The notes under the pieces are model-generated. The model had not been told where the DNA came from, did not search any database, and saw nothing but the letters and a program-made list of their open reading frames with translations. A program made the position numbers and the translations under genes. From NCBI GenBank assembly GCA_963727175.1, contig CAVSFD010000002.1:4701381-4765380 (forward strand): a stretch of 64,000 bases of DNA, read 5' to 3'. Source of the stretch: an uncultured Spirochaetota bacterium. GTDB lineage: Bacteria > Spirochaetota > UBA4802 > UBA5550. Positions 2,345 through 17,754 of the stretch are shown here, piece after piece (position 1 is the first letter of the stretch; the number at the start of each line of letters is the position of its first letter).

Positions 2345-3399
2345 CTACTCCAGCGCCTTCTGTATCTCGGCCAGCACCTCGTCGGGAAAGGGTATCCCCC
2401 CGCCGGGCCTGCCGTAGAATGATATCTTCGCGTCCTTGTGCGCGTTAATCTTCACGTCATAGAGCATCTGGCCGGTGTTCATTTCCACAACCAGTATCTT
2501 TTTAATTCTTTCGGAGTGACGGTATACCTGCTTTTCAGGGAACGGGAAGAGCGTGATCGGCCGGAGCAGCCCTATCTTCATTCCCTGCTCCCGTGCCATC
2601 CGTATCGCCGTCTTGGCGATCCGCGCCGGGGTGCCGAAGGCCACGATCATCAGCTCCGCATCATCCAGGAACTTTTCCTCGCAGAGGACCTCGTTTGGCG
2701 CGGATTTCGTCATATTTTTTCTGAAGATCAAGGTTGTGCCGCTTCCTGTTCGCCGGGGCCCAGGTAGAGAGACTTGAGGAGCTTCGGTTTCTGTCCGTTG
2801 CGGCCTTTCAGCGCCCAGGGTTTTTCAGGAATGACGATGGGATGATCCGGAGTGAGCCGGCACGGCTCCTGGAACTGGCCCACCATGGCGTCCGCCAGAA
2901 TGACAGAGAGCATCCGGTACTTGTCAGCCAGTTCGAAGCCCTTGATGGTCAGGTCAAACATTTCCTGGACCGATGCCGGCGCCAGCACGATGTTATGATA
3001 ATCGCCATGACCGCCGCCATGGACAGCCTGGGTGTAATCCCCCTGGGTGGGGGATATGCCGCCGAGGCCCGGACCGCACCGCATGATGTTAACCACCAGA
3101 CCCGGGATTTCAGATCCGGCGATATAGGAGAATCCTTCCTGCATGAGGGATATGCCCGGGCCGGATGACGACGTCATGGCCCGCTCCCCCGACGCGCCGG
3201 CACCGAGGACCATGTTGATCGATGCGATTTCGCTCTCGGCGGGGATAAAGGTGCCGCCGTGTTTGGGGAGCTCCCGGGCAAGGTATTCGGGGATGTCGTT
3301 CTGAGGGGTAATGGGATAACCGAAGTAATACCGGCATCCCGCCTGTATCGCTCCCTCGGCAAGGGCTATGTTCCCCTTGGTCAGCTTCTTATCGGTCAT
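2345..3399 (-). CDS. 2-oxoacid:ferredoxin oxidoreductase alpha subunit, split into two ORFs (2728..3399 and 2345..2731) by an apparent frameshift or stop
   Basis: The N-terminal ORF (MTDKKLTKGNIALAEGAIQAGCRYYFGYPITPQ...) and the C-terminal ORF (...DDAELMIVAFGTPARIAKTAIRMAREQGMKIGLLRPITLFPFP) together make a normal ~350-aa alpha subunit. The junction sits at a TTGA overlap next to an A6 run. A third frame carries HNLDLQKKYDEIRAK, which reads like linker sequence. Confidence 0.7.
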
Positions 3400-3911: not shown

Positions 3912-4478
3912 ATGGACAATACCGATATCAAAGTGGGCGAAAAGATAAAGAAGTACCGCGAAACAATGAACATATCCCTGGCTGACCTTGCCGAGCGGAC
4001 AGGGTTCTCCCCGGCGTTCCTGTCCCAGCTTGAAAACCACCTCATCTCGCCCCCCCTGGGAGCCCTGATGAAGATAGCCCGTTCCCTCGGCATCGAAATC
4101 GGCAAGCTTTTCGGGCAGAAGGGCACAGCGCCCTTCACCATCGTCCGGAAAGACGAGCGGATCCAGACCTCCCGGGTTGCCTCCAAGGAAGGAGTCCGGT
4201 ACGGGTATTCATACGAATCACTGGCGCCGGATAAGATAAACCGCAAGATGGAGCCCTTCCTGGTGACGCTGGAGCCGGTTTCAAAGAAAGGAATGCCTTA
4301 CAATCACGACGGCGAGGAGTTTCTTTTTGTCCTTGAAGGCAGGGTCGAGATTCAGCTTGGCGAGCATACTGACATTCTCGAGGCGGGGGACAGCATTTAC
4401 TACGATTCAAAACTCGACCACCGGGTCTCCTGCGCCGACGACAGGCCGGCCAGAATAGTCGCCGTCATCTACGCGTAA
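3912..4478 (+). CDS. XRE-family HTH transcriptional regulator with C-terminal cupin domain
   Basis: 188 aa. The N-terminal HTH_3-like segment is IKKYRETMNISLADLAERTGFSPAFLSQLE. The C-terminal cupin-like beta-barrel segment is GEEFLFVLEGRVEIQLGE...GDSIYYDS. Confidence 0.75.
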   Translation: MDNTDIKVGEKIKKYRETMNISLADLAERTGFSPAFLSQLENHLISPPLGALMKIARSLGIEIGKLFGQKGTAPFTIVRKDERIQTSRVASKEGVRYGYSYESLAPDKINRKMEPFLVTLEPVSKKGMPYNHDGEEFLFVLEGRVEIQLGEHTDILEAGDSIYYDSKLDHRVSCADDRPARIVAVIYA

Positions 4479-4490
4479 ACGACAGCGGCA

Positions 4491-6710
4491 TCAATCATCC
4501 CTTTTCCCGGTCATGACAATCTCTTTCAACTCGTTCGCCTTGTCCGCGATGACGTGAGTAAACCGCTGCAGCTTCCTGCTTGATTCTGCTATGCCCTGGG
4601 CCATTTCAGAAATGCGGAGTATTGTCCGGGAATTCTCTTCCATCGATTTCCTCTGCTCCGTGGTGGAGTTCTGGATGGTGCGCGACACCTCCTCCAGTAT
4701 CCGCGCCTGGTCTATGATTTTCATGATAATGGCTCCGAGATCACCCATCGCCCCTGACACCGTATCGACCTTTCCGGTAATCCCCTTTATGAGGGTGAAG
4801 ATCGCCTCTGTCGATTTCCTCGTTTCGTTCAGCATGGCGATACCGCTGGCGATATCGCTGGTTATCTTCGTTACCTGGTTCGATATGACTTTCGAATTCT
4901 CGGTGGTCCTGGCCGCCAGCTTCCCGATCTCGTCGGCGACCACGGCAAAACCCCGTCCATGCTCGCCGGCGCGCGCCGCCTCTATGGCGGCGTTCAAGCT
5001 GAGAAGGTTGATCTTGTCGGATATGTCGTCGATGACCGATATGAAATTATTGATGGTCTGGCCGCCCTCATTGATGATATGCATCATTGACATCATCTTC
5101 TCGTAATTTTCGCCGGTGGCGTCGGTGGTCTTTTCAATATCAGTAATGCCGGAATGCATCGCCTCGCTCAGGCTTTTCACGGACTGCTGTGTCCCCTTCA
5201 GGTTGTCGACCATCACGGATACCTTCGCCCGCTCCTCTTCCTGGCGGAACACCGAGTCCACGATCGACTCGATGGCGGAGGTGAGCTCCTCGAAGGAAGC
5301 GGACATCTGCTCGCTCAGGGATGCCTGCTCCATGGACATCTCTGACAGGCTCTTGCCCATGAGTTCTTCCTCCCTGCCGACGTTAAGGAGTTCGTTGGAG
5401 GTCATCTGCGCCTTCTCCATGACGCCTTCCAGGTACCGGTTCCGGTCTTCCAGATTGTCCTTGAGTTGATGCACCTCCCGGTTCATGGTCTTTATCTTGT
5501 CGGCGAGCCCAAGGGAAAGAAGCACCATCTGTGCGGCCCCGCCGAGAGGGACGCCCTGGTGCGTTATGAAGGATTCCGGAAGAACACGAACTGCCTTCAG
5601 GATATACAGACACGCGCCGAGGATCAGCGCGCCCCAGGCTATGAGGAAAAACCGCGCCGGCCTGCTGCCCTGACGCAAACAAATGACGCCGGTAACGATG
5701 AGGATGATGGCCAGAACGAAAGTCACCGCCATGGCGGGGATGACGATGCAAAAGTACGCGGTGTTGCCGAAAAAGGGCGTGAGGGCCCCGGTCGCGGCCA
5801 TGATGACGGCTCCCAGGACCGGAAAAGCCACGATCACCCGGTGGAGCCGGGGTACATGCACCTTCGTATCAAGAAATTTCTGCATGAACATTGAGCTGGA
5901 TATCATGACCAGGGAGACGCCCAGGAGTATGCAGTTCATCGCCATCCAGCTGAATCTCTTCCATATGAATTCGTTGCCGATGCCGTTCTCGGAGATGATG
6001 TAAAACAGGAACGAAAAAATGAAAAAGACCAGGTAAAAATAGTTTTCATCGCGTGACATGAAGAAGATGAAAAAATTATAAAGCATGATGATAATCATGG
6101 CCCCCAGGAGAACGCCCAGCACGATCTGTTCCTTCCGCTCGGCCTTGATGAATTCGATCTGGGACATGAGCCGCAGGGGAAACACGATACCGTCGCCGCT
6201 CTGAGCCCGGAGGTAAAAATGACGCGTCTCCCCCGGCTTGAGGCGCAGCTCATAAACAAACGTGCGCCGTTTTATCTCTTTCCCCGTGTAAGGCATGGAG
6301 CGCCCCTGCTGTTCTTCAATGAAGCCGCCCTTCGGCTGCGCGGTAAAAAGGGAAACATAATCTATGAGGGGATGGTTCAGCTCGAGGAGCCAGTCCTTTT
6401 CCTCCCCGGACGCGTTTTGTATGGAGAACCGTATCCACCAGGCGGACATGGTCTGCCCGATGTTGGGGACCTCCTCAGTGCTGATTGTGAACCTTTTTTG
6501 AAAATCAGGTCCCGATACCCGGTCTATCGTCAGGTTTTTTTCCGGGTCCTCCAGCAGGGCTATATACCTGCCCGGTATCTCATAATAATCGCTGCCTTTA
6601 TTGATCCTGAATGCATTCTGCGCAAACAGGGGCATGATTACCGATAACAAAAAAGTCATGACGAGCATACAGATGATGGCGGCCTGTGAAAATAGGGTTC
6701 GGTTCTTCAT
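4491..6710 (-). CDS. Methyl-accepting chemotaxis protein with 7TMR-DISM extracellular domain and 7TM module
   Basis: 739 aa with a signal peptide, a periplasmic ~150-aa domain, about 7 hydrophobic helices and a C-terminal MCP signalling domain ([30 protein letters not shown]). Confidence 0.8.
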
Positions 6711-6842
6711 TGCAGTGGTCCTTAATCGCTGAGATGCCTGTATACCGAAATAATATACTGTGTTGTCTTTGCTGTAATACAGCCTGATTATGATAATGCT
6801 GCGCCATCAGTCTGGCTGGCCAGCTTCCTGCGCCGGCCCGTG

Positions 6843-7523
6843 TTAACGGAGAAGGCGCTCAGCGACAAAGTAAAAAAACGCCGCAGCCCCGAGATAGAGG
6901 AGCATGACGGAAAACGCCGCGGGAATCTTGAGCCAGTTCCTTTTTTCCCTGACCTGCTCAAAGGCATACCGGCACGACAGGCCCAGGATGATCTCGGGGA
7001 TAATGATATAGACCGCGGTATGCCCCACCATGGCCACGTTCCGCGCATACCAGGAAGGAAGCATCCACACGGTCTCCTCTGACGCGCCGAAAATCACCAG
7101 GGCCAGGAGCGCAGCGGCCCAGTAGCCGAAACGGGGAGAGAGGCGTTCACTGACCCGCCCGGCAGCGTATATAATGATGAAAACTGGAATGGCCCACAGG
7201 CCTGCCATGTAACCGGAGACTGTGCCGATTTTCAGGAACCCGTCCTCCGGGAAGACCAGTACTCCCAGCTGGTGCGAGAGGAACCAGTCAGGGAACACCT
7301 GGAAGACGCTCAGGATAAGGGCAAAGAGCCAGATGTTGATCCAGAGATCATAGCCGCGGAGCTTTGCCGTGACCGGCAGGGCGATATTGTACAGCACAAC
7401 AAGGATGAAAAGCTTGATGCCGATCTCAGGGCCGGGGATCAGGAGAACCGGGAGGCAGATCAGGGAAAAAGCCGCGTGGAGGATAATAGCATCGCGCTCT
7501 TCACGGGTTAATGAAAACTTCAT
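6843..7523 (-). CDS. Integral membrane protein of unknown function (5-6 TM helices)
   Basis: 226-aa ORF that is hydrophobic throughout. I recognise no catalytic motif. Confidence 0.45.
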   Translation of the reverse strand: MKFSLTREERDAIILHAAFSLICLPVLLIPGPEIGIKLFILVVLYNIALPVTAKLRGYDLWINIWLFALILSVFQVFPDWFLSHQLGVLVFPEDGFLKIGTVSGYMAGLWAIPVFIIIYAAGRVSERLSPRFGYWAAALLALVIFGASEETVWMLPSWYARNVAMVGHTAVYIIIPEIILGLSCRYAFEQVREKRNWLKIPAAFSVMLLYLGAAAFFYFVAERLLR

Positions 7524-7568
7524 GAATGCCTCCTTGAATCAAAATATCAGCCTTCTCAACAATAATTG

Positions 7569-8396
7569 CTATTTCTCGATGCCGGGAATATCAGCCACTT
7601 CGCTGATCCGTTCCTTGATCTGCCTGAGGAGCTTGTCTTCGCCGGCGATTTTTATCAAGATTGCCTTTTGCGGACAGACCTCGGCGCAGCGCCCGCACCC
7701 CTTGCAGTCAGGCCCGATGACGGCCTTGCCCTTTTTCATCTCGATGGCGCATACAAAGCATTTGTCCACGCAGATTTCACAGCCGTCACATTTCTTCGGT
7801 TCAACACGGACCGTGATGCCGGGAAGTTTCTTGAAGGCATTATCAAGGGTGGGGCCCCTCTTTTTCATGTGTGTGCGGTAGATACAGTTGACGTCGTCGC
7901 AGAAACATATGAACATGAGGTCCCTGAAGCTGAGCCAGAAGGCGAAAGGATCAATCCACACATGGGCGACGTTGGCTATGAGTCCCAGTTCCCCGGCGCG
8001 GCGGATATGCTGGATGGCTTCTTTCGTGGTAATCCTGCGGCCGTGAGAGGGATGCATCCTTTTAATGGCCGGTCCCATGGCGATGCACCCGATATAACGG
8101 TCCTCGGTGGCGACCTTGTTGTGGTGCCGGCAGATACATTCATCAAGAACAAACTTTTCGTCAATTTCCGTGACAAGCTTTTCTACGATGTTGCGCGGCA
8201 GCGGCACTGACTTCGGAAAGTCAAGGTTAACGCTGATGGGGATCGATGTCACTTCATTGTGAGGGCGCATGAAAAACGGATTGATGATCCATTTCAACAC
8301 CGGCAGCGAGCTCCATTTTTTTCCGGCCCGAATGATCGGCCACGACAGCCACACCATGAAAGCCACCATCTTTTTCCCTGGACCGTGTTTGAACAT
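7569..8396 (-). CDS. Fe-S cluster-binding protein with a C-terminal 2x[4Fe-4S] ferredoxin-like domain
   Basis: 275 aa. C-terminal CDGCEICVDKC...CKGCGRCAEVCP motifs plus additional upstream Cys clusters (CICRHH, CFCDD). Confidence 0.55.
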   Translation of the reverse strand: MFKHGPGKKMVAFMVWLSWPIIRAGKKWSSLPVLKWIINPFFMRPHNEVTSIPISVNLDFPKSVPLPRNIVEKLVTEIDEKFVLDECICRHHNKVATEDRYIGCIAMGPAIKRMHPSHGRRITTKEAIQHIRRAGELGLIANVAHVWIDPFAFWLSFRDLMFICFCDDVNCIYRTHMKKRGPTLDNAFKKLPGITVRVEPKKCDGCEICVDKCFVCAIEMKKGKAVIGPDCKGCGRCAEVCPQKAILIKIAGEDKLLRQIKERISEVADIPGIEK

Positions 8397-8414
8397 GATT
8401 ACCTCGCCAATGTA

Positions 8415-8693
8415 TTATCTTTCAATGATGCCCTTTTTCAGCGGCAGCCACCAGGTGAACCCGTAGAGGATCGTCTTCAATACAACCATCGACGCGGGAA
8501 CCCCCTTATCCCTGCCTATTTTCAAAGACACCGCGGGGATCTCCACTACATGCAGGATCAAGAGGCCGATAAAAAATATCCTCGACATAAGGGGATCGCC
8601 GGGAAACAGGTAGCGTCCTAACGCCAGGGATAAACCATAAAGGACGATGGCGCCGATCATCAGGAAATACCAGAACATTTTGTTTTGAATCAT
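8415..8693 (-). CDS. Small membrane protein, hypothetical
   Basis: 92 aa with 3 predicted TM helices, immediately downstream of the Fe-S protein gene. Confidence 0.35.
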   Translation of the reverse strand: MIQNKMFWYFLMIGAIVLYGLSLALGRYLFPGDPLMSRIFFIGLLILHVVEIPAVSLKIGRDKGVPASMVVLKTILYGFTWWLPLKKGIIER

Positions 8694-8923
8694 ACCGCCT
8701 CCCAGTCGCTCTCATAATATATCACAAGAGTTAATAGAATGTCAAGTTGGACAATCGTCCAACTATCATCAATAGGTAAGCAGGGCTAAATGTCAACAAT
8801 TAACAATATATTCTTCAAGGAATTATTAGAAAGCCAGGAAGAGGGTACTACCGGGGTCAGAGCAACCATCTTGTGCTGGTTATAGCACCTTTATATAGCA
8901 TGACCACCTGTTATACGTTTTAC

Positions 8924-9002
8924 TCTGACCCCAATGCAACCGGAACCCGGGGTCAGAGCAACATGCCATGAAACAACTGGCCCCCATGCGATTGGGGGCC
9001 AG
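8924..9002 (-). terminator. Two stem-loops downstream of the secreted hydrolase gene. One has a 10-bp perfect stem (CTCTGACCCC / GGGGTCAGAG). The other has an 8-bp stem (TGGCCCCC / GGGGGCCA).
   Basis: Inverted repeats read in sequence at 8924-8959 and 8979-9002. They lie just 3' of the stop codon at 9034 of the minus-strand gene. Confidence 0.4.
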
Positions 9003-9033
9003 CAATGTCATCATATATACTATGCAGCGGTTG

Positions 9034-10077
9034 TTACCGGGTCAGCTGGGTAACGGCCTTGACCGGCGTACCGTCGCTCCAATTACCCATATCAAAGGTA
9101 AGAGTATTTTGTCCGTCCAGGGCTGCATCAAGGGCGGGCCAGAAAACCCGGTAGTCGAAAGCATCCACCTCGCCGTCGCCGCCGAGCATATTCATCGCCC
9201 AGCTGGGCATCCAGCCATCGTCGCAGATGGGGGCCATGTGGTCGGCTTTAAGGTCCTTGTCGCCATGAGTATCGGTATTGTACTGGTAAATCACCTTTGA
9301 TGGAGCATTCACCAGGGCATCATAGGCCTCATAGGCGGTCTCCGGCAGGGCAATGGTATCATCTGATCCGGTCAGTATAATGACCGGGACCGTGGTTGCA
9401 CGGGCCTTGGCATTGAAATCGAGCTCTGTCACGTCAACAAAGGCGTCAACAAAGGCCGGAATATTGGCGTACAAACAGGGGTCAGCAAGAACGATCCTCT
9501 TAACTGCCGGAGCAATGGCGGCGCCTTCATTATCTGCCCAGCAGAGGCTGATAAGGCCCCCCAGGGAGTGACCGAAAAGCACCATGTTGCTTCGGTCGGC
9601 CTTTGATCCTATCTTATTCAGGGCATCATTCACCGAATCGATGGTCCGGTGCATCATGTTGTACTGATTGTTATCGGTAGCCAGGCCTACGAGGCCGCCC
9701 TTGTTTATCTGCGGGAACAGGACGATGTAGCCCTGCCTGCAGAGGTGCTCGATATGGTCCATGTAAATATCAGGCGCCATAAGCATCATGCCGTGAAGGT
9801 AGATGACAACCGGCGCTTTGGTCCCGTTCTTCAATTTATCGGGGATATAATACCAGCACCAGTAACCGCTCCAGGGATTGTACCAGGCGCCAACCCTGCC
9901 CTCGGTAAAGCCGTTGCATATGTATTTAGCGGATGAGCCATAACCGGATACTGCCTGACCCGGGGCAGTTATCCCGGCCGCCCCGGCCGAATTGAAATCA
10001 CAGTTCAAGGAGAAAATCAGCACCAGCAACGCGATCAATAACAATTTACCCTTCATTGACAAGACCTCCCATTGCAA
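9034..10077 (-). CDS. Secreted alpha/beta-hydrolase (lipase/esterase-like, GHSLGG nucleophile elbow)
   Basis: 347 aa with an N-terminal signal peptide (MKGKLLLIALLVLIFSLN), a GxSxG motif (GHSLGG) and a YLHGM oxyanion-region motif. Confidence 0.7.
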   Translation of the reverse strand: MQWEVLSMKGKLLLIALLVLIFSLNCDFNSAGAAGITAPGQAVSGYGSSAKYICNGFTEGRVGAWYNPWSGYWCWYYIPDKLKNGTKAPVVIYLHGMMLMAPDIYMDHIEHLCRQGYIVLFPQINKGGLVGLATDNNQYNMMHRTIDSVNDALNKIGSKADRSNMVLFGHSLGGLISLCWADNEGAAIAPAVKRIVLADPCLYANIPAFVDAFVDVTELDFNAKARATTVPVIILTGSDDTIALPETAYEAYDALVNAPSKVIYQYNTDTHGDKDLKADHMAPICDDGWMPSWAMNMLGGDGEVDAFDYRVFWPALDAALDGQNTLTFDMGNWSDGTPVKAVTQLTR

Positions 10078-10298
10078 TTTTTTAAGCCGATAACTATCAC
10101 TGCGCCTCCAACTCCAAAATCAGTCTTTATTTATATAAACGTCCAGCGACCGTCCAGTCGGTTTGATGTATACACTATATGCATATACAAAATCCAGATG
10201 CTACTCAATATTACAGATTCTGTAAATTTGACAGAATTCTCGCAGGAAATCTCTTTTTAAAGGGCCAAATCCCTTGAACAACGAGGTATTGCCTTTTA

Positions 10299-11867
10299 TT
10301 AGCGAATATCAAGTTTTAATTCAGCCCGGTACTCGGTAGGTGTTTTGCCGGTGCAGTTTTTAAAGGCCCTGTTGAATGTTGACAGGCTGTCAAAACCCGT
10401 GGCCAGGGCGGCATCAATGATCTTAACCTGCTTGTCCTTAAGGCGTTCCATCGCCTCATGTATCCTGAGCTCATTTATGTAATCATTGATTTTTTTTCCG
10501 GTGAATTCCTTGAACTGGCCGCTGAAATAGTTGGGGTTCATCCCTACCGCAGCGGCAAGGCCCTCGCGGGAAATATCAGACCGGTAATTCTCATTGATGA
10601 AGGCTATGATACTCTTCAATTTTTCCCCGGTTGAATCGGTTACGACCTTTCGCCTGGCATGGTCCGATTTCTGGCCGGGCACATGGAGCTGTTCATAGAG
10701 GACCTTCAGGCTGATCATCCTGCGCTGGTATTCACGCGATCCCAGCACCGCGAAGCCGAGGATAACGAAAGGCGAGAAATAGGTTACTATAAGGAAGGAG
10801 TACCTGCTCCCGGTGATATACAACAATACCTCGAGGATCCCGCCGACGGAGAGGAGCGACACCAGAACCAGGATCACCGCGCACTTGAACCTGTCGGGCC
10901 GAAGCCTGTTGATCCTCAGGGTCATGTACACGGCATAGGGGATGAAAGCGGTTATTATCACCAGGCCATAGAGAGGGTTCAGATAAAAATCGAGGACGAT
11001 GTAATTCAAAAGAAATATCACGCCGGACACAGCAAGTACCCCGCCGTTGATGATCCATGAATATTCAAACAAATCAACGCGGTACAGCGCCTGAATAATG
11101 AGAATGAACAGAATGCCGAAGAGCGGCATTGCCAGCATAAGCAGGGGCGGGATCATATCAAGGGCAACCATTTTGTAGGGGGAAAAAATGGTGATGATGT
11201 AGACCGCATTGAGGAGCTGCACCAGGATCTCGTACAGGAAGAGCCTGTCATATCCGTAAAAAATTGTCACTGCCGTCATGAGCAGGATGCTTCCCGCGAG
11301 GAGAAGGAGTATGCCGATGGGAAGCTGGTTGTAGATCAGGTCATAGAAGTTCTTCAGGCGGCGGTATTCCATCTTCGGCTGGATATAGACCCCGTCAGGG
11401 AGGCCGCCGTACTCATAGCTGTAAATGCCCAGGTACAGGTAAATTTCATTTTTTCCTTTTTTGAGGAGGCCCCGGGGCATCATAAAACTTTCCGGGTAAT
11501 GAAGATTGGATATCTCGGGCGGCGTTTTAACGTCGATCAGGTAATCATTGATGAATATTTCATACGTGTAATTGATTCTTCCCAGCGTAATGCCGTAATA
11601 CTTCTCCGGATTGTCTTTTATATCAAATTCACCCCTGAGCCAGCAATACCGGAAGGCCCGCTCCGCCTTATAGGGCAGCCGAAACTTCGATGGTATTTGT
11701 ATGGGGACCCATCCGGTCATTCCCCGAACAGCGTCGATTGACGGCTCCTGGCTGTACAGCACCATCCATTCCCGTACCTGGATGGATTCCGGAATAGCAG
11801 GAAAGCAAAATGATCGGGCCGGCAGTAAGATAAAAAAACACGCGGCGATGAGCAATGGCAACTTCAT
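10299..11867 (-). CDS. Membrane-bound AraC-family transcriptional regulator with 7TMR-DISM sensor (periplasmic domain + 7TM) N-terminal to the HTH
   Basis: 522 aa with a signal peptide, a periplasmic domain, about 7 TM helices and a C-terminal AraC HTH (DSLSTFNRAFKNCTGKTPTEYR). Confidence 0.75.
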   Translation of the reverse strand: MKLPLLIAACFFILLPARSFCFPAIPESIQVREWMVLYSQEPSIDAVRGMTGWVPIQIPSKFRLPYKAERAFRYCWLRGEFDIKDNPEKYYGITLGRINYTYEIFINDYLIDVKTPPEISNLHYPESFMMPRGLLKKGKNEIYLYLGIYSYEYGGLPDGVYIQPKMEYRRLKNFYDLIYNQLPIGILLLLAGSILLMTAVTIFYGYDRLFLYEILVQLLNAVYIITIFSPYKMVALDMIPPLLMLAMPLFGILFILIIQALYRVDLFEYSWIINGGVLAVSGVIFLLNYIVLDFYLNPLYGLVIITAFIPYAVYMTLRINRLRPDRFKCAVILVLVSLLSVGGILEVLLYITGSRYSFLIVTYFSPFVILGFAVLGSREYQRRMISLKVLYEQLHVPGQKSDHARRKVVTDSTGEKLKSIIAFINENYRSDISREGLAAAVGMNPNYFSGQFKEFTGKKINDYINELRIHEAMERLKDKQVKIIDAALATGFDSLSTFNRAFKNCTGKTPTEYRAELKLDIR

Positions 11868-12020: not shown

Positions 12021-13988
12021 TTATTTTCCTGCGCTGTACCGTCCATCAAGGTCAATGATCATGCTGTCGACGCGGCTCTCGAAGAGCTCCAAAGCCTCGT
12101 CAAAATATGCGCGGAAGTCCCTGTTGACGGAGCGGTATTTTTTACGCGCCCTCGCTTTCAGAGCGCGGCAGTATTTCTGAAGATCAGGGAGTGAATCACC
12201 GCCCGGGGCCATCGCCTCGATCTTCTTTTTCATAGATAGAGTCATGGCGTCAATGTATATCCGCATATCTTCGGCAAGCTTCTTCATCGGCTCCTCGATG
12301 GTGCTGTGGAAATCGTCATGGAGCATGCGGTATTTCATTCTGACTGCCGCGGCAAAGGTCTTTCCGAACACCTCGCGGTCGAGGGCAAGAAGCTCCCGAA
12401 CGATATCCTCCATGCGGCCGAAGCGGGCCCGTTCGATCCTGTTTCTCAGGCTCATCCGCATCGTTTCGATCGATGCAGACAGGTCATCCGCCGCGAGGAT
12501 TTCTTTTGTTATCCTGAAAAAGTGGTACCCGAAAAGGGCCATCTTGACCGCCTTGGGAAAGAGCCCCGGCCGAATCCGCACGGCCGCGGCAAGGTAGTTC
12601 AGGTATTCCCTTCCATATGAAGAGAATATCTGACGGAACACCGAGGAGAGAAAAATCCTGACAACGAGGAGGATCGTCCAGAAGGATAATGCCCCGCGGC
12701 CAACCTTCCCCCGGGGCATTCTCTGCATCATGGTAAGGCACCGGTTGAAGTACTCCCGGGGCGTGTAGATCTGCGATATCAGCTCCCTGTACCCCTTCGC
12801 CAGCGTTTCTCCGTCCATGACAGGGATAAAGTTGGTGGTGAAGCTGTGGGTGTTGTTCCCCGACGTCTCCGACAGTATCCGTCCCTCCGAATTGAGACGG
12901 CGATAAAGCCGGGTATTGGGAAGGGCGATGAGTAGTCCCGCCATGGCCATGGGTATGCCCGATTCGCGGATGAAATCGATCTGCAGGTCAAAGACATTCT
13001 CAGGGTCGCTGTCAAAGCCGATGATGAACCCTGCCGTCACTTCCATTCCCTTGCGCTGGATGCGCTCCACTCCCCGGAGAAGGGAACCCTTGAGGTTCTG
13101 CTTCTTCCCGGCCTGTTCGAGGCATTCCGCGACCGGGGTTTCGATGCCCAGGAAGACCTTGTTGAACCCGGCGTCGATCATCAGGTCCATCAGTTCCTCG
13201 TCGTCGGCGAGATTGACGCTGGCCTCGGTGGTTATCATGTAGGGATAGTGCCGTTCCTCCTGCCACCGTGCGACCGCGGTGAGAAGCTCTTTCACATTCT
13301 TTTTGTTGCCGATAAAGTTGTCGTCCACTATGAAGAGCGGCCCCCGGTAACCGGTGCGGTACAGCGCTTCCATTTCGGCGATAAACTGCTCCGGCGTCTT
13401 GGCACGGGGCACCCGGCCGAAAAACTCAATGATGTCACAGAACTCGCAGTTGAAGGGACATCCCCGGGAATACTGCAGTGACATGGTGGTATAGCGGCGG
13501 TGCTTCACCAGGCTGAAGCGGGGGACCGGTGTTTTCGTGATGTCCGGTCTCGAATCGCTCCGGTACAGGGGCCGGGCCTCGCCCTTCTCCCAGTCCTGAA
13601 GGAACTGCGGCAGCGTTACCTCCGCCTCACCCAGGACAAAGTGGTCAACGCCGGTAATATGCCGGTGAGACCCCGTGGGATAAGGTCCCCCGGCCACGAC
13701 GGTTTTACCGAGTCTGTTGCACAGGGCCACGACCCGGTCAAAGGATTCCTTCTGTATGATCATGGCGGAGATGAAAACCAGATCAGCCTTCTTTACATCC
13801 CGCACCATCAGCTTCTCAGTGTTCATGTCCACCAGGGTTATATCATAGCTGTCCGGGATAAGCGATGCCACGGTCATCAGTCCCAGCGGCGGAAAGGCCG
13901 AACGCCGGCCCACCAGCTTCAGTATGTACTTAAAGCTCCAGTAGGTCACCGGGGTATCAGGATATATCATCAGTATCTTTTTTTTCAT
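12021..13988 (-). CDS. B12-binding domain radical SAM protein (class B rSAM with C-terminal DUF4070-like extension)
   Basis: 655 aa. The N-terminal Rossmann-like cobalamin-binding region is MIYPDTPVTYW...LGLMTVASL. The rSAM Cys motif is CPFNCEFC (CxxxCxxC). Confidence 0.8.
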   Translation of the reverse strand: MKKKILMIYPDTPVTYWSFKYILKLVGRRSAFPPLGLMTVASLIPDSYDITLVDMNTEKLMVRDVKKADLVFISAMIIQKESFDRVVALCNRLGKTVVAGGPYPTGSHRHITGVDHFVLGEAEVTLPQFLQDWEKGEARPLYRSDSRPDITKTPVPRFSLVKHRRYTTMSLQYSRGCPFNCEFCDIIEFFGRVPRAKTPEQFIAEMEALYRTGYRGPLFIVDDNFIGNKKNVKELLTAVARWQEERHYPYMITTEASVNLADDEELMDLMIDAGFNKVFLGIETPVAECLEQAGKKQNLKGSLLRGVERIQRKGMEVTAGFIIGFDSDPENVFDLQIDFIRESGIPMAMAGLLIALPNTRLYRRLNSEGRILSETSGNNTHSFTTNFIPVMDGETLAKGYRELISQIYTPREYFNRCLTMMQRMPRGKVGRGALSFWTILLVVRIFLSSVFRQIFSSYGREYLNYLAAAVRIRPGLFPKAVKMALFGYHFFRITKEILAADDLSASIETMRMSLRNRIERARFGRMEDIVRELLALDREVFGKTFAAAVRMKYRMLHDDFHSTIEEPMKKLAEDMRIYIDAMTLSMKKKIEAMAPGGDSLPDLQKYCRALKARARKKYRSVNRDFRAYFDEALELFESRVDSMIIDLDGRYSAGK

Positions 13989-16480: not shown

Positions 16481-17473
16481 TTAAACCTTCACGGCAGCTC
16501 TTCTTTTAACCGACCGCATCTTCCCATCATTACGAAGCGCAACTTTTTTCTTCATGGCGGGCTTCTTTCCCTTCATGAAAAACGCGTGGGCGTCACGGGC
16601 AGTCACGGCCGGCATCTCCTCCATCGGCATATGGCCGCAGTCATCATAGAGCACCAGCTCCGCGTGGGGAAGGTCCCGCTTCCAGTGATCAATCGTCTCC
16701 TTCCATCGCGACCAGATATCCTTCTTTCCCCATGCCATCATCACCGGCATCTGTAGCTTTTTGACATCGAGATAGATCGTGTCAGACCTGCTCATGTCGG
16801 CAATCACCTTGAAGATTTTCGACAGGGTGCGCCGGTTCCCCTCGCGCATGATGAGGTCCCAGTACATGTCATACACTGCCGGCGTAATTCTTTCCTTCCT
16901 GCCGTACAGGCGTTCGATGCTGGTCTTGATCAGCAGCCGCGGCAGCATCACGTTATTGATTACGGATTTTACTCCCGGTATCTGCGCCAGCTTGAATTCA
17001 TACGGAAGGGACTGGTTATAGGCTATCGGATCCAGCAGCAGAAGTTTTTCTATCATGTCCGGACGGTGTACGGCGTATTTCCATGCGTAGAAACCGCCCA
17101 GAGAATTCCCCGCGATAAAGCAGCGCTTGATCTTCAGCGCATCGAGGAAAGAATCGAGAAAGGCGTTCATGGCTTCGTCCATGTATTCCTCTTCCCTTGA
17201 AGGACCGGTGATGCCCCACCCGGGCAGGTCCAGACGGATGATGCGGTAGTGGTCTTTCAGCTCATTGTACCAGCCGTCCCAGGTATGCAGAAAGGCGACA
17301 ACGCCATGGAGCAGCACCAGCACGGGGCCCGTGCCCTGGTCCTTGTAATGCACATCCATGCCGTTTATCGTTATGAATTTTGAATCCTCATCGCAATACT
17401 TGCATTTCATCTTTTCTAACGGGTTTGAGCGAATGCCGGGATTAAAATTCTGGAGAAACATTTCTACTGACAT
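16481..17473 (-). CDS. Alpha/beta-fold hydrolase (GNSLGG) with a Lys-rich C-terminal tail
   Basis: 330 aa with an HG oxyanion-hole motif (VLLHGVVAFLHTW), nucleophile GNSLGG and the catalytic His region (DDCGHMP). Confidence 0.75.
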   Translation of the reverse strand: MSVEMFLQNFNPGIRSNPLEKMKCKYCDEDSKFITINGMDVHYKDQGTGPVLVLLHGVVAFLHTWDGWYNELKDHYRIIRLDLPGWGITGPSREEEYMDEAMNAFLDSFLDALKIKRCFIAGNSLGGFYAWKYAVHRPDMIEKLLLLDPIAYNQSLPYEFKLAQIPGVKSVINNVMLPRLLIKTSIERLYGRKERITPAVYDMYWDLIMREGNRRTLSKIFKVIADMSRSDTIYLDVKKLQMPVMMAWGKKDIWSRWKETIDHWKRDLPHAELVLYDDCGHMPMEEMPAVTARDAHAFFMKGKKPAMKKKVALRNDGKMRSVKRRAAVKV

Positions 17474-17754
17474 GATGGACCCCTGGGAATTAATTTACAA
17501 TCTTCATTAAATTAAAACGCTAACCGCATCGGTAAGTAATAAATCCGACCGTCTGTATGGATTAAAAATATCACATTGCAAGTCCTTTGTCTGGCCACAT
17601 ATCGTTATGCCAGAATCTGTCCCTGCATCATAAATTGGATGGCGGAATTGAATCAACATGCCATTGCGCCAAATCAAGATCGTGCTTGATTTGGCCAGAT
17701 GCGGGATTATTCAGAAGATTTTTCAGTTACAGGGTCAGAGTAACACCAGTTTTG

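What the first reader, a model, noticed from the sequence alone, without database searches (positions are those of the whole stretch)
4491..11867. Two different output modules, a chemoreceptor and a membrane-bound AraC regulator, share 7TMR-DISM-type sensing architecture within 6 kb
Both proteins combine a signal peptide, a periplasmic domain of ~150-200 aa and a 7-helix membrane module. One ends in an MCP signalling domain and the other in an AraC DNA-binding domain. A DNA-binding regulator tethered by seven TM helices is uncommon. The pair may couple chemotaxis and transcription to the same extracellular cue. The genes between and beside them (Fe-S protein, membrane proteins, a secreted lipase-like hydrolase) are candidates for the regulated output.
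Basis: partly seen in the sequence, partly recalled or inferred. Interest (0 to 1): 0.5.

Follow-up and report, generated by a model that had tools for sequence, protein, structure and literature searches.

The report
Seven-helix membrane sensor fused to AraC regulator
Two neighbouring genes of an uncultured spirochaete encode related seven-helix membrane sensors, one driving chemotaxis and one binding DNA directly, but they carry different outer sensing domains and are linked in only some relatives, so they probably read different signals.

Summary
The gene at 4491-6710(-) is a textbook 7TMR-DISM chemoreceptor (DISMED2 + 7TMR-DISM_7TM + MCP signalling domain). The gene at 10299-11867(-) encodes a signal peptide, a ~160-aa periplasmic beta-sandwich, seven TM helices and a cytoplasmic AraC DNA-binding domain.

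- Pfam sees nothing in the AraC protein's first 400 residues.
- Profile-profile comparison shows its 7TM bundle is a remote homologue of 7TMR-DISM_7TM (94-98.5% probability; reversed and shuffled controls at most 4%).
- AraC, a secreted alpha/beta hydrolase, DUF6989 and a divergent HTH-cupin gene stay together in all nine lineages examined. The chemoreceptor is present in only three.
- A conserved 30-bp element lies upstream of the hydrolase gene in every lineage.

Best reading: a previously unannotated Spirochaetota family (at least 69 clusters at 50% identity) of membrane-anchored one-component AraC regulators. It probably controls the adjacent hydrolase gene. The chemoreceptor is a late, independent addition to the locus. 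Interest is modest: a new variant of a known receptor class.

The parts
4491..6710 (-). Chemoreceptor gene (739 aa): signal peptide, 7TMR-DISMED2, 7TMR-DISM_7TM, coiled linker, MCP signalling domain
   Evidence: Pfam hits all above the gathering score. NCBIfam hits only to MCP signalling regions. Orthologues of 75-82% identity occur in three lineages only.
6162..6572 (-). MCP periplasmic 7TMR-DISMED2 domain (aa 47-183)
   Evidence: PF07696, E = 6.3e-37, full profile 1-136 of 136.
5496..6131 (-). MCP 7TMR-DISM_7TM module (aa 194-405)
   Evidence: PF07695, E = 6.1e-45, profile 1-205 of 205.
4668..5132 (-). MCP signalling domain (aa 527-681), with the hairpin-tip motif [28 protein letters not shown]
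   Evidence: PF00015, E = 8e-30. The motif was read from the translation.
10299..11867 (-). 7TM-anchored AraC regulator gene (522 aa)
   Evidence: Translation. Family alignments A1 and A5. AlphaFold model with pLDDT 80.
11373..11804 (-). AraC periplasmic domain (aa about 22-165): GH2-N-like galactose-binding-like jelly roll
10737..11321 (-). AraC seven-helix membrane module (aa about 183-377), a remote homologue of 7TMR-DISM_7TM
10314..10634 (-). AraC-type double-HTH DNA-binding domain (aa about 412-518), cytoplasmic
10203..10232 (-). Conserved 30-bp element GTCAAATTTACAGAATCTGTAATATTGAGT containing the palindrome TTACAGAATCTGTAA; candidate regulator binding site upstream of the hydrolase gene
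   Evidence: Present once per locus, always in the AraC-hydrolase intergenic region, in all nine lineages down to 60% protein identity. Unique in the window, with 0 matches in 100 shuffles. Its function is inferred.
10147..10161 (-). Second conserved element CCGACTGGACGGTCG (palindromic CCGTCCGGACGG in distant relatives), about 68 nt downstream of the first
   Evidence: Conserved column block in the intergenic alignment. GACGGTCG occurs only twice in the window, both times 67-69 nt downstream of ACAGAWTCTG.
9034..10056 (-). Secreted (possibly lipoprotein) alpha/beta hydrolase, chlorophyllase/PETase/DLH-like, GHSLG nucleophile motif; most likely regulated target
   Evidence: Pfam Hydrolase_4, Chlorophyllase and Abhydrolase_1. 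The ATG at 10056 follows a GGGAGG. The gene is always immediately downstream of the AraC gene.
8976..9003 (-). Intrinsic terminator after the hydrolase gene
   Evidence: 11-bp stem with 8 GC pairs plus a T run. The GGCCCCC...GGGGGCC hairpin is conserved in all lineages.
6843..8693 (-). Operon of small TM protein (8415-8693), Fe-S protein (7569-8396) and DUF6989 membrane protein (6843-7523), with a TTGACA-18-TATATT promoter at 8745-8716
   Evidence: DUF6989 is conserved in all lineages. The small TM and Fe-S genes are missing in the four most distant lineages.
3912..4478 (+). Convergent HTH_3-cupin (XRE-type) regulator, conserved end of the cluster
   Evidence: Pfam. Present in all complete loci at 76-91% identity.
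16481..17620 (-). Second alpha/beta-hydrolase gene (16481-17473) whose upstream region carries the same bipartite signature (ACAGATTCTG at 17620-17611, GACGGTCG at 17553-17546)
   Evidence: Its homologues in L004 and L006 carry Pfam Abhydrolase_1. The upstream signature is conserved in L004 and L010.

Best explanation
The locus holds two independently evolved members of the bacterial 7TMR-DISM receptor superfamily.

The chemoreceptor is canonical. A DISMED2 jelly-roll ectodomain and a 7TMR-DISM bundle feed an MCP signalling hairpin.

The AraC protein belongs to a divergent, previously unannotated Spirochaetota family. In it, a GH2-N-type galactose-binding-like ectodomain is joined by one continuous helix to a 7TMR-DISM-like bundle. 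The last TM helix extends into the cytoplasm, and a short flexible linker leads directly to an AraC double-HTH domain.

I propose it is a membrane-anchored one-component regulator. Binding of an extracytoplasmic, probably carbohydrate-like, ligand to the ectodomain would reposition the 7TM bundle and hence the tethered DNA-binding domains. These would then act on the conserved 30-bp element just downstream of its own gene, controlling the secreted alpha/beta hydrolase. A second hydrolase promoter with the same bipartite signature may also be controlled.

The chemoreceptor was inserted between DUF6989 and the HTH-cupin gene in one sub-clade only. It senses something different through DISMED2.

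Shown: domain composition, fold, remote homology of the 7TM modules, family distribution, synteny, conserved cis elements. Inferred: the ligand class, membrane-bound DNA binding, which regulator uses the cis element, and whether the effect is activation or repression.
For: Canonical MCP architecture.

AraC topology and fold.

7TM homology:
- hhalign Prob 94.3% (P = 1e-7) and 95.7% (P = 9e-9), in register from the last two beta strands through TM7. Shared motifs are RDxxYLYY / DRLFLYEIL after TM1 and RPARFF / RPDRFK in the TM5-6 loop.
- Reversed and 20 block-shuffled templates reach at most 4.2%.
- TM-only triangulation gives 98.5% and 96% through receptors that Pfam itself calls 7TMR-DISM_7TM.

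Shared sensor module: the same ectodomain precedes PF07695 bundles in PP2C-phosphatase, histidine-kinase, GGDEF and MCP proteins of Spirochaetota. A near-identical sensor module (E = 1e-72) carries a HisKA_3 kinase instead of AraC (P0117).

Ectodomain class.

Family size: at least 69 full-length representatives at 50% identity have sensor plus AraC HTH, 69 of 69 with HTH_18.

Synteny: AraC, hydrolase, DUF6989 and HTH-cupin are kept in all nine lineages; the MCP is in three.

Cis elements. A TATAGT at 10179-10174 would place the 30-bp element at roughly -65 to -36, the usual position for AraC/XylS activators. This last point is my own reading of the sequence.
Against: - Pfam's 7TMR-DISM_7TM model does not detect the AraC bundle: no hit in the window protein and only one sub-threshold hit (E = 0.006) among 69 family members. 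The direct TM-only hhalign probability is only 62%.
- No experiment links the regulator to the cis element.
- The element contains a perfect 15-bp palindrome, which suits a dimeric XRE-type protein such as the conserved neighbouring HTH-cupin at least as well as an AraC protein.
- The consensus scan places a weak promoter (TTTACA-17-TAGCAT) over the element. That would make it an operator rather than an activator site.
- GH2-N-like domains do not always bind sugars, so the ligand class is a guess.
- In the window lineage no terminator separates DUF6989 from the MCP gene, so some transcriptional coupling of the MCP to the cluster cannot be excluded.
Confidence: 0.6

Rival explanations
1. One reading: the chemoreceptor and the AraC regulator are a functional pair that detect the same extracellular cue and couple chemotaxis with transcription of the intervening genes.
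For: The two proteins have the same overall architecture and homologous 7TM modules. They lie on the same strand about 3.6 kb apart. The arrangement AraC ... DUF6989 - MCP recurs in three lineages. No terminator was found between DUF6989 and the MCP gene.
Against: The ectodomains belong to different families with no significant profile similarity. The MCP is absent in six of nine lineages, including one with 82% identical AraC. The cluster comprises at least three transcription units with their own promoters and a terminator.
Confidence: 0.1
2. The AraC protein's seven helices are an unrelated membrane anchor that only resembles 7TMR-DISM by composition and helix count. The ectodomain is simply a carbohydrate-binding module fused to a generic polytopic anchor.
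Against: With 89 sequences the probability rises to 94-96% over all seven helices in register, with shared loop motifs. Reversed and shuffled controls stay at or below 4%. The TM-only profile matches PF07695-positive receptors that share the same ectodomain at 98.5%, P = 4e-15. hmmsearch alignments run as single stretches from the ectodomain through the TM region of those receptors.
Confidence: 0.08
3. The protein works by regulated proteolysis. Ligand binding triggers cleavage in the flexible linker (aa about 396-411) and releases a soluble AraC domain, rather than the protein binding DNA while membrane-bound.
For: The model has a low-confidence linker at residues 396-411 (pLDDT below 50) between the TM7 extension and the HTH. 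Release by proteolysis is an established mode for other membrane-tethered transcription factors (general knowledge).
Against: No protease gene is conserved in the cluster. The target gene lies immediately next to the regulator gene in every lineage. This fits a membrane-bound regulator acting close to where it is made. That is an inference, not a test.
Confidence: 0.12
4. The conserved cis elements and the hydrolase genes are controlled by the neighbouring HTH_3-cupin regulator, and the 7TM-AraC protein has other, unlinked targets.
For: The main element contains a perfect 15-bp palindrome, and the second element is palindromic in distant lineages. Palindromes are typical of dimeric XRE-family proteins (general knowledge). 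The HTH-cupin gene is as strictly conserved in the cluster as the AraC gene.
Against: The 30-bp element is longer than the palindrome and asymmetric (conserved GTCAAA on one side, TTGAGT on the other). It always sits directly after the AraC gene. The two motifs may well serve the two regulators separately.
Confidence: 0.25

Closest known systems
7TMR-DISM receptors with a DISMED2 ectodomain (P. aeruginosa RetS and LadS, S. meliloti RgsP)
   Different: The described members signal through histidine kinase, GGDEF/EAL or related modules (PMC6107284). Here the outputs are an MCP hairpin and a direct AraC DNA-binding domain. The AraC ectodomain is not DISMED2 by sequence, and its bundle falls below Pfam's threshold.
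Spirochaetota 7TMR-DISM PP2C phosphatases, kinases and cyclases with a GH2-N-like ectodomain (e.g. P0191, P0199, P0210, P0265-P0296); possibly the '7TMR-DISMED1' class of Anantharaman and Aravind 2003 (from memory, not checkable here)
   Same: They have the same ectodomain family (hmmsearch E = 1e-11 to 1e-6 against 1.84 billion proteins) followed by a seven-helix bundle (TM-only hhalign 98.5%).
   Different: Their bundles pass Pfam PF07695, and their outputs are SpoIIE/PP2C, HisKA/HATPase, GGDEF or MCP. None found here carries an HTH.
Membrane-bound one-component transcription regulators (ToxR, TcpP, CadC; Vibrio ChiS)
   Same: One polypeptide combines an extracytoplasmic sensor, a membrane anchor and a DNA-binding domain. 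The inferred mechanism is DNA binding at the membrane.
   Different: From general knowledge, ToxR and CadC have an N-terminal winged-helix domain, a single TM helix and a C-terminal periplasmic domain. ChiS is a kinase-like protein with a cryptic DNA-binding domain (bioRxiv 10.1101/2020.11.18.389122, which also lists 7TMR-DISM proteins carrying that domain). Here the order is reversed, the anchor has seven helices, and the DNA-binding domain is AraC-type.
Classical AraC/XylS regulators (AraC, RhaS, MelR, ToxT, Rns)
   Different: The usual soluble N-terminal ligand-binding and dimerisation domain is replaced by a secreted ectodomain plus a 7TM bundle.
GH2 N-terminal sugar-binding domain, and the inserted domain of sialate O-acetylesterases (PDB 7kmm, 9ega, 9h4u)
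   Same: These are the closest sequence and structure relatives of the AraC ectodomain.
   Different: In those enzymes the domain is part of a soluble hydrolase. Here it is a stand-alone receptor ectodomain, and none of Pfam's models reaches threshold on it.

Membership tests
7TMR-DISM receptors (the MCP, 4491-6710) | Seven-helix module matching Pfam PF07695 above its gathering score | tested here: met
   154.1 bits against a cut-off of 29, full-length profile match.
7TMR-DISM receptors (the MCP, 4491-6710) | N-terminal extracytoplasmic DISMED2 domain (PF07696) | tested here: met
   127 bits against a cut-off of 22. A single-sequence search of PDB did not reach RetS or LadS, which are too divergent for phmmer.
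7TMR-DISM receptors (the AraC protein, 10299-11867) | Seven-helix module matching Pfam PF07695 above its gathering score | tested here: not met
   No hit even at E <= 10. One of 69 family members has a sub-threshold hit, E = 0.006.
7TMR-DISM receptors (the AraC protein, 10299-11867) | Homology of the 7TM module to 7TMR-DISM bundles by profile-profile comparison | tested here: met
   hhalign 94.3-95.7%. 98.5% to PF07695-positive receptors and 96% onward to DISMED2-type receptors. Controls at most 4.2%.
7TMR-DISM receptors (the AraC protein, 10299-11867) | DISMED2 ectodomain | tested here: not met
7TMR-DISM receptors (the AraC protein, 10299-11867) | DISMED1 ectodomain as defined by Anantharaman and Aravind 2003 | not testable with these tools
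   No DISMED1 hit was returned by any Pfam scan here, and to my knowledge Pfam has no DISMED1 model. The defining paper is not held. Indirect support: the same ectodomain precedes PF07695 bundles in many Spirochaetota receptors.
7TMR-DISM receptors (both proteins) | N-terminus outside and C-terminus inside, with a cytoplasmic signalling module after TM7 | tested here: inconclusive
   Signal peptide plus an odd number of helices, and Arg/Lys-rich predicted cytoplasmic loops (sequence). Prediction only; no experimental topology.
Methyl-accepting chemotaxis proteins | MCP signalling domain (PF00015) with the conserved hairpin tip | tested here: met
   104.4 bits against a cut-off of 34.6. Tip motif present.
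Methyl-accepting chemotaxis proteins | Cognate CheA/CheW pathway in the genome | not tested
   The rest of the 64-kb window was not scanned for che genes, and the rest of the genome is unavailable.
AraC/XylS transcription regulators | C-terminal domain with two HTH motifs (PF12833/PF00165) | tested here: met
   78 bits against a cut-off of 33.6, and 57.3 against 26.6. Structural match to solved AraC DNA-binding domains.
AraC/XylS transcription regulators | Sequence-specific DNA binding and control of a target promoter | not testable with these tools
   Only a conserved candidate site is available.
Galactose-binding domain-like fold, GH2-N type (the AraC ectodomain) | Sequence and structural similarity to GH2 N-terminal sugar-binding domains | tested here: met

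The most novel reading that the evidence does not exclude
The AraC protein may represent a bacterial '7TM receptor-transcription factor'. In this reading a GPCR-like seven-helix receptor senses an external glycan or ester-linked carbohydrate through a GH2-N-like ectodomain. It converts that signal directly into promoter activation at the membrane, with no kinase, second messenger or proteolysis. Its dedicated regulon would be secreted hydrolases marked by a bipartite cis signature. The same sensor module is exchanged between AraC, LytTR, kinase, phosphatase and chemoreceptor outputs in Spirochaetota.
Probability: 0.4. Interest if true: 0.55.

Novelty: new variant of a known kind. Interest (0 to 1): 0.38.

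Why it matters
7TMR-DISM receptors are known mainly from a few Pseudomonas and Rhizobium kinases and c-di-GMP enzymes, and their ligands are still mostly unknown. This locus adds three things.

1. The superfamily extends to a direct DNA-binding (AraC) output. That is the shortest possible path from a seven-helix receptor to a promoter.
2. Current domain databases leave the sensor part of this whole family (at least 69 clusters at 50% identity) unannotated, so these proteins are filed as ordinary soluble AraC regulators.
3. The strict linkage to a secreted hydrolase gene, with a conserved 30-bp element, offers a simple reporter system. It could be used to find ligands of a GH2-N-type receptor ectodomain and to study how a 7TM bundle transmits a signal.

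The work also corrects the attractive but unsupported idea that the neighbouring chemoreceptor shares the same cue.

Tried and rejected
- Pairwise BLASTP of the two proteins found nothing.
- Pfam at E <= 10 on the isolated ectodomain and TM region of the AraC protein found nothing. NCBIfam found only the HTH.
- hhalign with the shallow close-family alignment (Neff 2.5) gave an unconvincing 27%. It became decisive only after the exhaustive profile search supplied diverse relatives.
- A single-sequence PDB search with the MCP's DISMED2 domain did not reach RetS or LadS.
- The defining 2003 paper on 7TMR-DISM could not be read. Whether it already lists AraC or MCP fusions, and how it defines DISMED1, rests on my memory only.
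- Literature searches for membrane-bound or 7TM AraC regulators and for 7TMR-DISM with AraC or chemoreceptor returned nothing relevant.
- The third word-index search, seeded with GH2-N-type 7TMR-DISM sensors, found phosphatase, GGDEF, kinase and MCP outputs but no protein with both PF07695 and an AraC HTH. This does not prove that none exists.
- The genome-collection scan recovered only the close family, eight loci, all Spirochaetota MAGs.
- I considered that the annotated shorter start (P0001, 488 aa, lacking the signal peptide) might be correct. I rejected it because the N-terminal hydrophobic segment and the FP-x-IPESI motif are conserved across homologues.

Full report
**1. What is in the sequence**

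All genes of the region lie on the minus strand, except a convergent HTH_3-cupin gene at 3912-4478.

The 739-aa product of 4491-6710 carries 7TMR-DISMED2 (residues 47-183, 6e-37), 7TMR-DISM_7TM (194-405, 6e-45) and an MCP signalling domain (527-681, 8e-30). All are far above Pfam's thresholds.

The 522-aa product of 10299-11867 has Pfam and NCBIfam hits only to the AraC double-HTH at 437-515. Its first 400 residues match no Pfam family even at E <= 10.

Between the two genes lie:
- a secreted alpha/beta hydrolase, 9034-10056, with its true ATG after a GGGAGG and a GHSLG motif;
- a 92-aa membrane protein, 8415-8693;
- a Fe-S protein, 7569-8396;
- a DUF6989 membrane protein, 6843-7523.

Upstream is a B12-binding radical-SAM gene, 12021-13988.

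**2. Architecture of the AraC protein**

An AlphaFold model built on 22 homologues (pLDDT 80, pTM 0.69) shows:
- a hydrophobic N-terminal helix;
- a beta-sandwich at about residues 30-164 (pLDDT about 90);
- a 40-residue helix (165-204) that runs from the sandwich straight into the membrane;
- six further long helices, giving seven TM helices in total. The last (359-394) projects into the cytoplasm;
- a disordered linker (396-411) and then the AraC domain.

**3. Are the two sensors related?**

Directly, no. BLASTP finds nothing, and a shallow profile comparison gave only 27%.

An exhaustive profile search of 1.84 billion representatives with the sensor part (alignment A2) changed the picture. 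It found 239 proteins at E <= 0.001, of which 75 were at E <= 1e-30. Of the 150 listed, 69 full-length representatives carry the same sensor plus an AraC HTH.

With this broader family (Neff 6.6), hhalign against an alignment of DISMED2-type 7TMR-DISM receptors that includes the MCP gave:
- 94.3% (P = 1e-7) and 95.7% (P = 9e-9) over 232-234 columns;
- an alignment in register from the last two beta strands through TM7;
- shared motifs after TM1 (DRLFLYEIL versus RDxxYLYY) and in the TM5-6 loop (RPDRFK versus RPARFF).

Reversed templates gave at most 4.2%, and 20 block-shuffled templates at most 1.3%.

More distant hits of the sensor profile (E = 1e-11 to 1e-6) are SpoIIE/PP2C phosphatases, histidine kinases, a hybrid kinase with a LuxR-type (GerE) HTH domain, and an MCP. 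Pfam itself calls the membrane region of most of these 7TMR-DISM_7TM. TM-only profiles give 98.5% (P = 4e-15) between the AraC family and these receptors, and 96% between these receptors and the DISMED2-type receptors.

I conclude that the AraC bundle is a divergent 7TMR-DISM module that lies below Pfam's detection limit (1 weak hit in 69 members).

**4. The ectodomains differ**

The AraC ectodomain profile hits the inserted beta-sandwich of sialate O-acetylesterases (9h4u, 9ega, 7kmm; 3e-10 to 2e-9) and, weakly, GH2 sugar-binding domains. In soluble relatives the matched regions are Pfam Glyco_hydro_2_N, Glyco_hydro_2_N2 or BetaGal_ABD2.

Profile comparison of the two ectodomains is not significant (P = 0.28 and 0.008; only the last strands align). 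The two ectodomains therefore share a jelly-roll fold and the way it is joined to TM1, but they belong to different families. This speaks against a common ligand.

I suspect the GH2-N-like domain corresponds to '7TMR-DISMED1' of the 2003 classification. No model exists and the paper is not held, so this remains untested.

**5. Distribution and synteny**

All named relatives come from uncultured Spirochaetota or Leptospirales MAGs. They are annotated only as AraC or HTH regulators.

Across nine lineages (AraC identity 60-82%) the order AraC, hydrolase, (small TM, Fe-S), DUF6989, then a convergent HTH-cupin gene is invariant. The small TM and Fe-S genes are missing in the four most distant lineages.

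The MCP gene sits between DUF6989 and the HTH-cupin gene only in the window and in two further lineages (L006/7/12 and L008). It is absent in L004/9, whose AraC is 82% identical and where only 13 bp separate the two flanking genes. It is also absent in all more distant lineages. The chemoreceptor is thus a late insertion into a pre-existing cluster, or was lost soon after gain. It is not a conserved partner.

**6. Regulatory signals**

The AraC-hydrolase intergenic region contains a 30-bp block, GTCAAATTTACAGAATCTGTAATATTGAGT (10203-10232). It is conserved in every lineage and unique in the window. About 68 nt downstream follows a second conserved, partly palindromic block, CCGACTGGACGGTCG.

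The hydrolase gene ends in a conserved strong terminator. The small-TM/Fe-S/DUF6989 operon has its own near-consensus promoter.

The same bipartite signature (ACAGAWTCTG, then GACGGTCG 67-69 nt later) recurs upstream of a second alpha/beta-hydrolase gene at 16481-17473. GACGGTCG occurs nowhere else in the 64 kb.

This supports a small hydrolase regulon around the regulator. The data cannot say whether the AraC protein, the HTH-cupin protein or both use these motifs, nor whether the effect is activation or repression. A TATAGT at 10179-10174 would put the 30-bp block at an activator-like position. The consensus scan instead overlays a weak promoter on the block.

**7. Mechanism proposed**

I propose a membrane-anchored one-component regulator. 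Ligand binding to the GH2-N-like ectodomain would be transmitted through the continuous helix into the 7TM bundle and the TM7 extension. This would alter the disposition, probably the pairing, of the tethered AraC domains on the adjacent promoter.

The close linkage of regulator and target genes fits action at the membrane. Regulated proteolysis at the disordered linker is the main mechanistic alternative. These steps are inferred; nothing here tests them.

**8. Comparison with what is known, and novelty**

The MCP is a new member of a known kind. 7TMR-DISM sensors with MCP output recur in Spirochaetota (P0044, P0053, P0059, P0211, P0298).

The AraC protein is a new variant. The receptor class and its modularity are established (PMC6107284, PMC8846402). 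A 7TMR-DISM link to another DNA-binding domain has been noted for ChiS-type proteins (bioRxiv 10.1101/2020.11.18.389122). However, I found no description of a direct 7TM-AraC fusion, and databases do not annotate its sensor.

The same sensor also occurs with a kinase output (P0117). Its ectodomain also occurs in a LytTR-output protein (P0215), showing output swapping.

Interest is moderate.

Noticed in passing
window 17546-17620 (-) and 10147-10223 (-): The bipartite signature ACAGAWTCTG followed 67-69 nt later by GACGGTCG occurs upstream of two different alpha/beta-hydrolase genes (9034-10056 and 16481-17473) and nowhere else in the window. The second copy is conserved in loci L004 and L010. 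This suggests a small shared regulon.
   Followed up: partly
window 2348-3399 (-): The pyruvate:ferredoxin oxidoreductase alpha-like gene (POR_N/PFOR_II) is split between two reading frames near 2740. Residues 1-219 of the L004 orthologue align in frame -2 and residues 220-350 in frame -1. This is either a frameshift or an assembly error.
   Followed up: partly
proteins P0215 and P0117 (relatives found): P0215 carries the GH2-N-like ectodomain together with a LytTR DNA-binding output; its membrane region was not examined. P0117 has a nearly identical sensor (E = 1e-72) with a HisKA_3/HATPase kinase output. The sensor module, or at least its ectodomain, is being swapped between outputs.
   Followed up: no
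alignment A5 consensus; P0026 N-terminus: Many distant members of the 7TM-AraC family have a Cys at the end of the signal peptide (for example LFSGC in P0026). This suggests lipoprotein-type processing of a polytopic receptor. The window protein's close relatives lack this Cys.
   Followed up: no
window 8700-8760 (-): In the close clade only, the palindrome TTGGACGATTGTCCAA lies immediately upstream of the near-consensus TTGACA -35 hexamer (8745-8740) of the small-TM/Fe-S/DUF6989 operon promoter. It is a likely binding site for a regulator, and it is unrelated to the hydrolase-promoter motifs.
   Followed up: no
window 8850-8960 (-), and L003, L006, L008 in the same intergenic region: Short repeated units of the type GGGGTCAGAGTAAAA (or their reverse complement CTCTGACCCC) are scattered in the hydrolase/small-TM intergenic region of several lineages. 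They also appear in other intergenic stretches (for example window 17740). They may be a small dispersed repeat of these genomes.
   Followed up: no
window 12021-13988 (-): A B12-binding radical-SAM protein with DUF4070 lies directly upstream of the AraC gene in most lineages, but not all: it is absent in L001/L013, L008, L011, L014 and L015. Its relation to the cluster is unknown.
   Followed up: no
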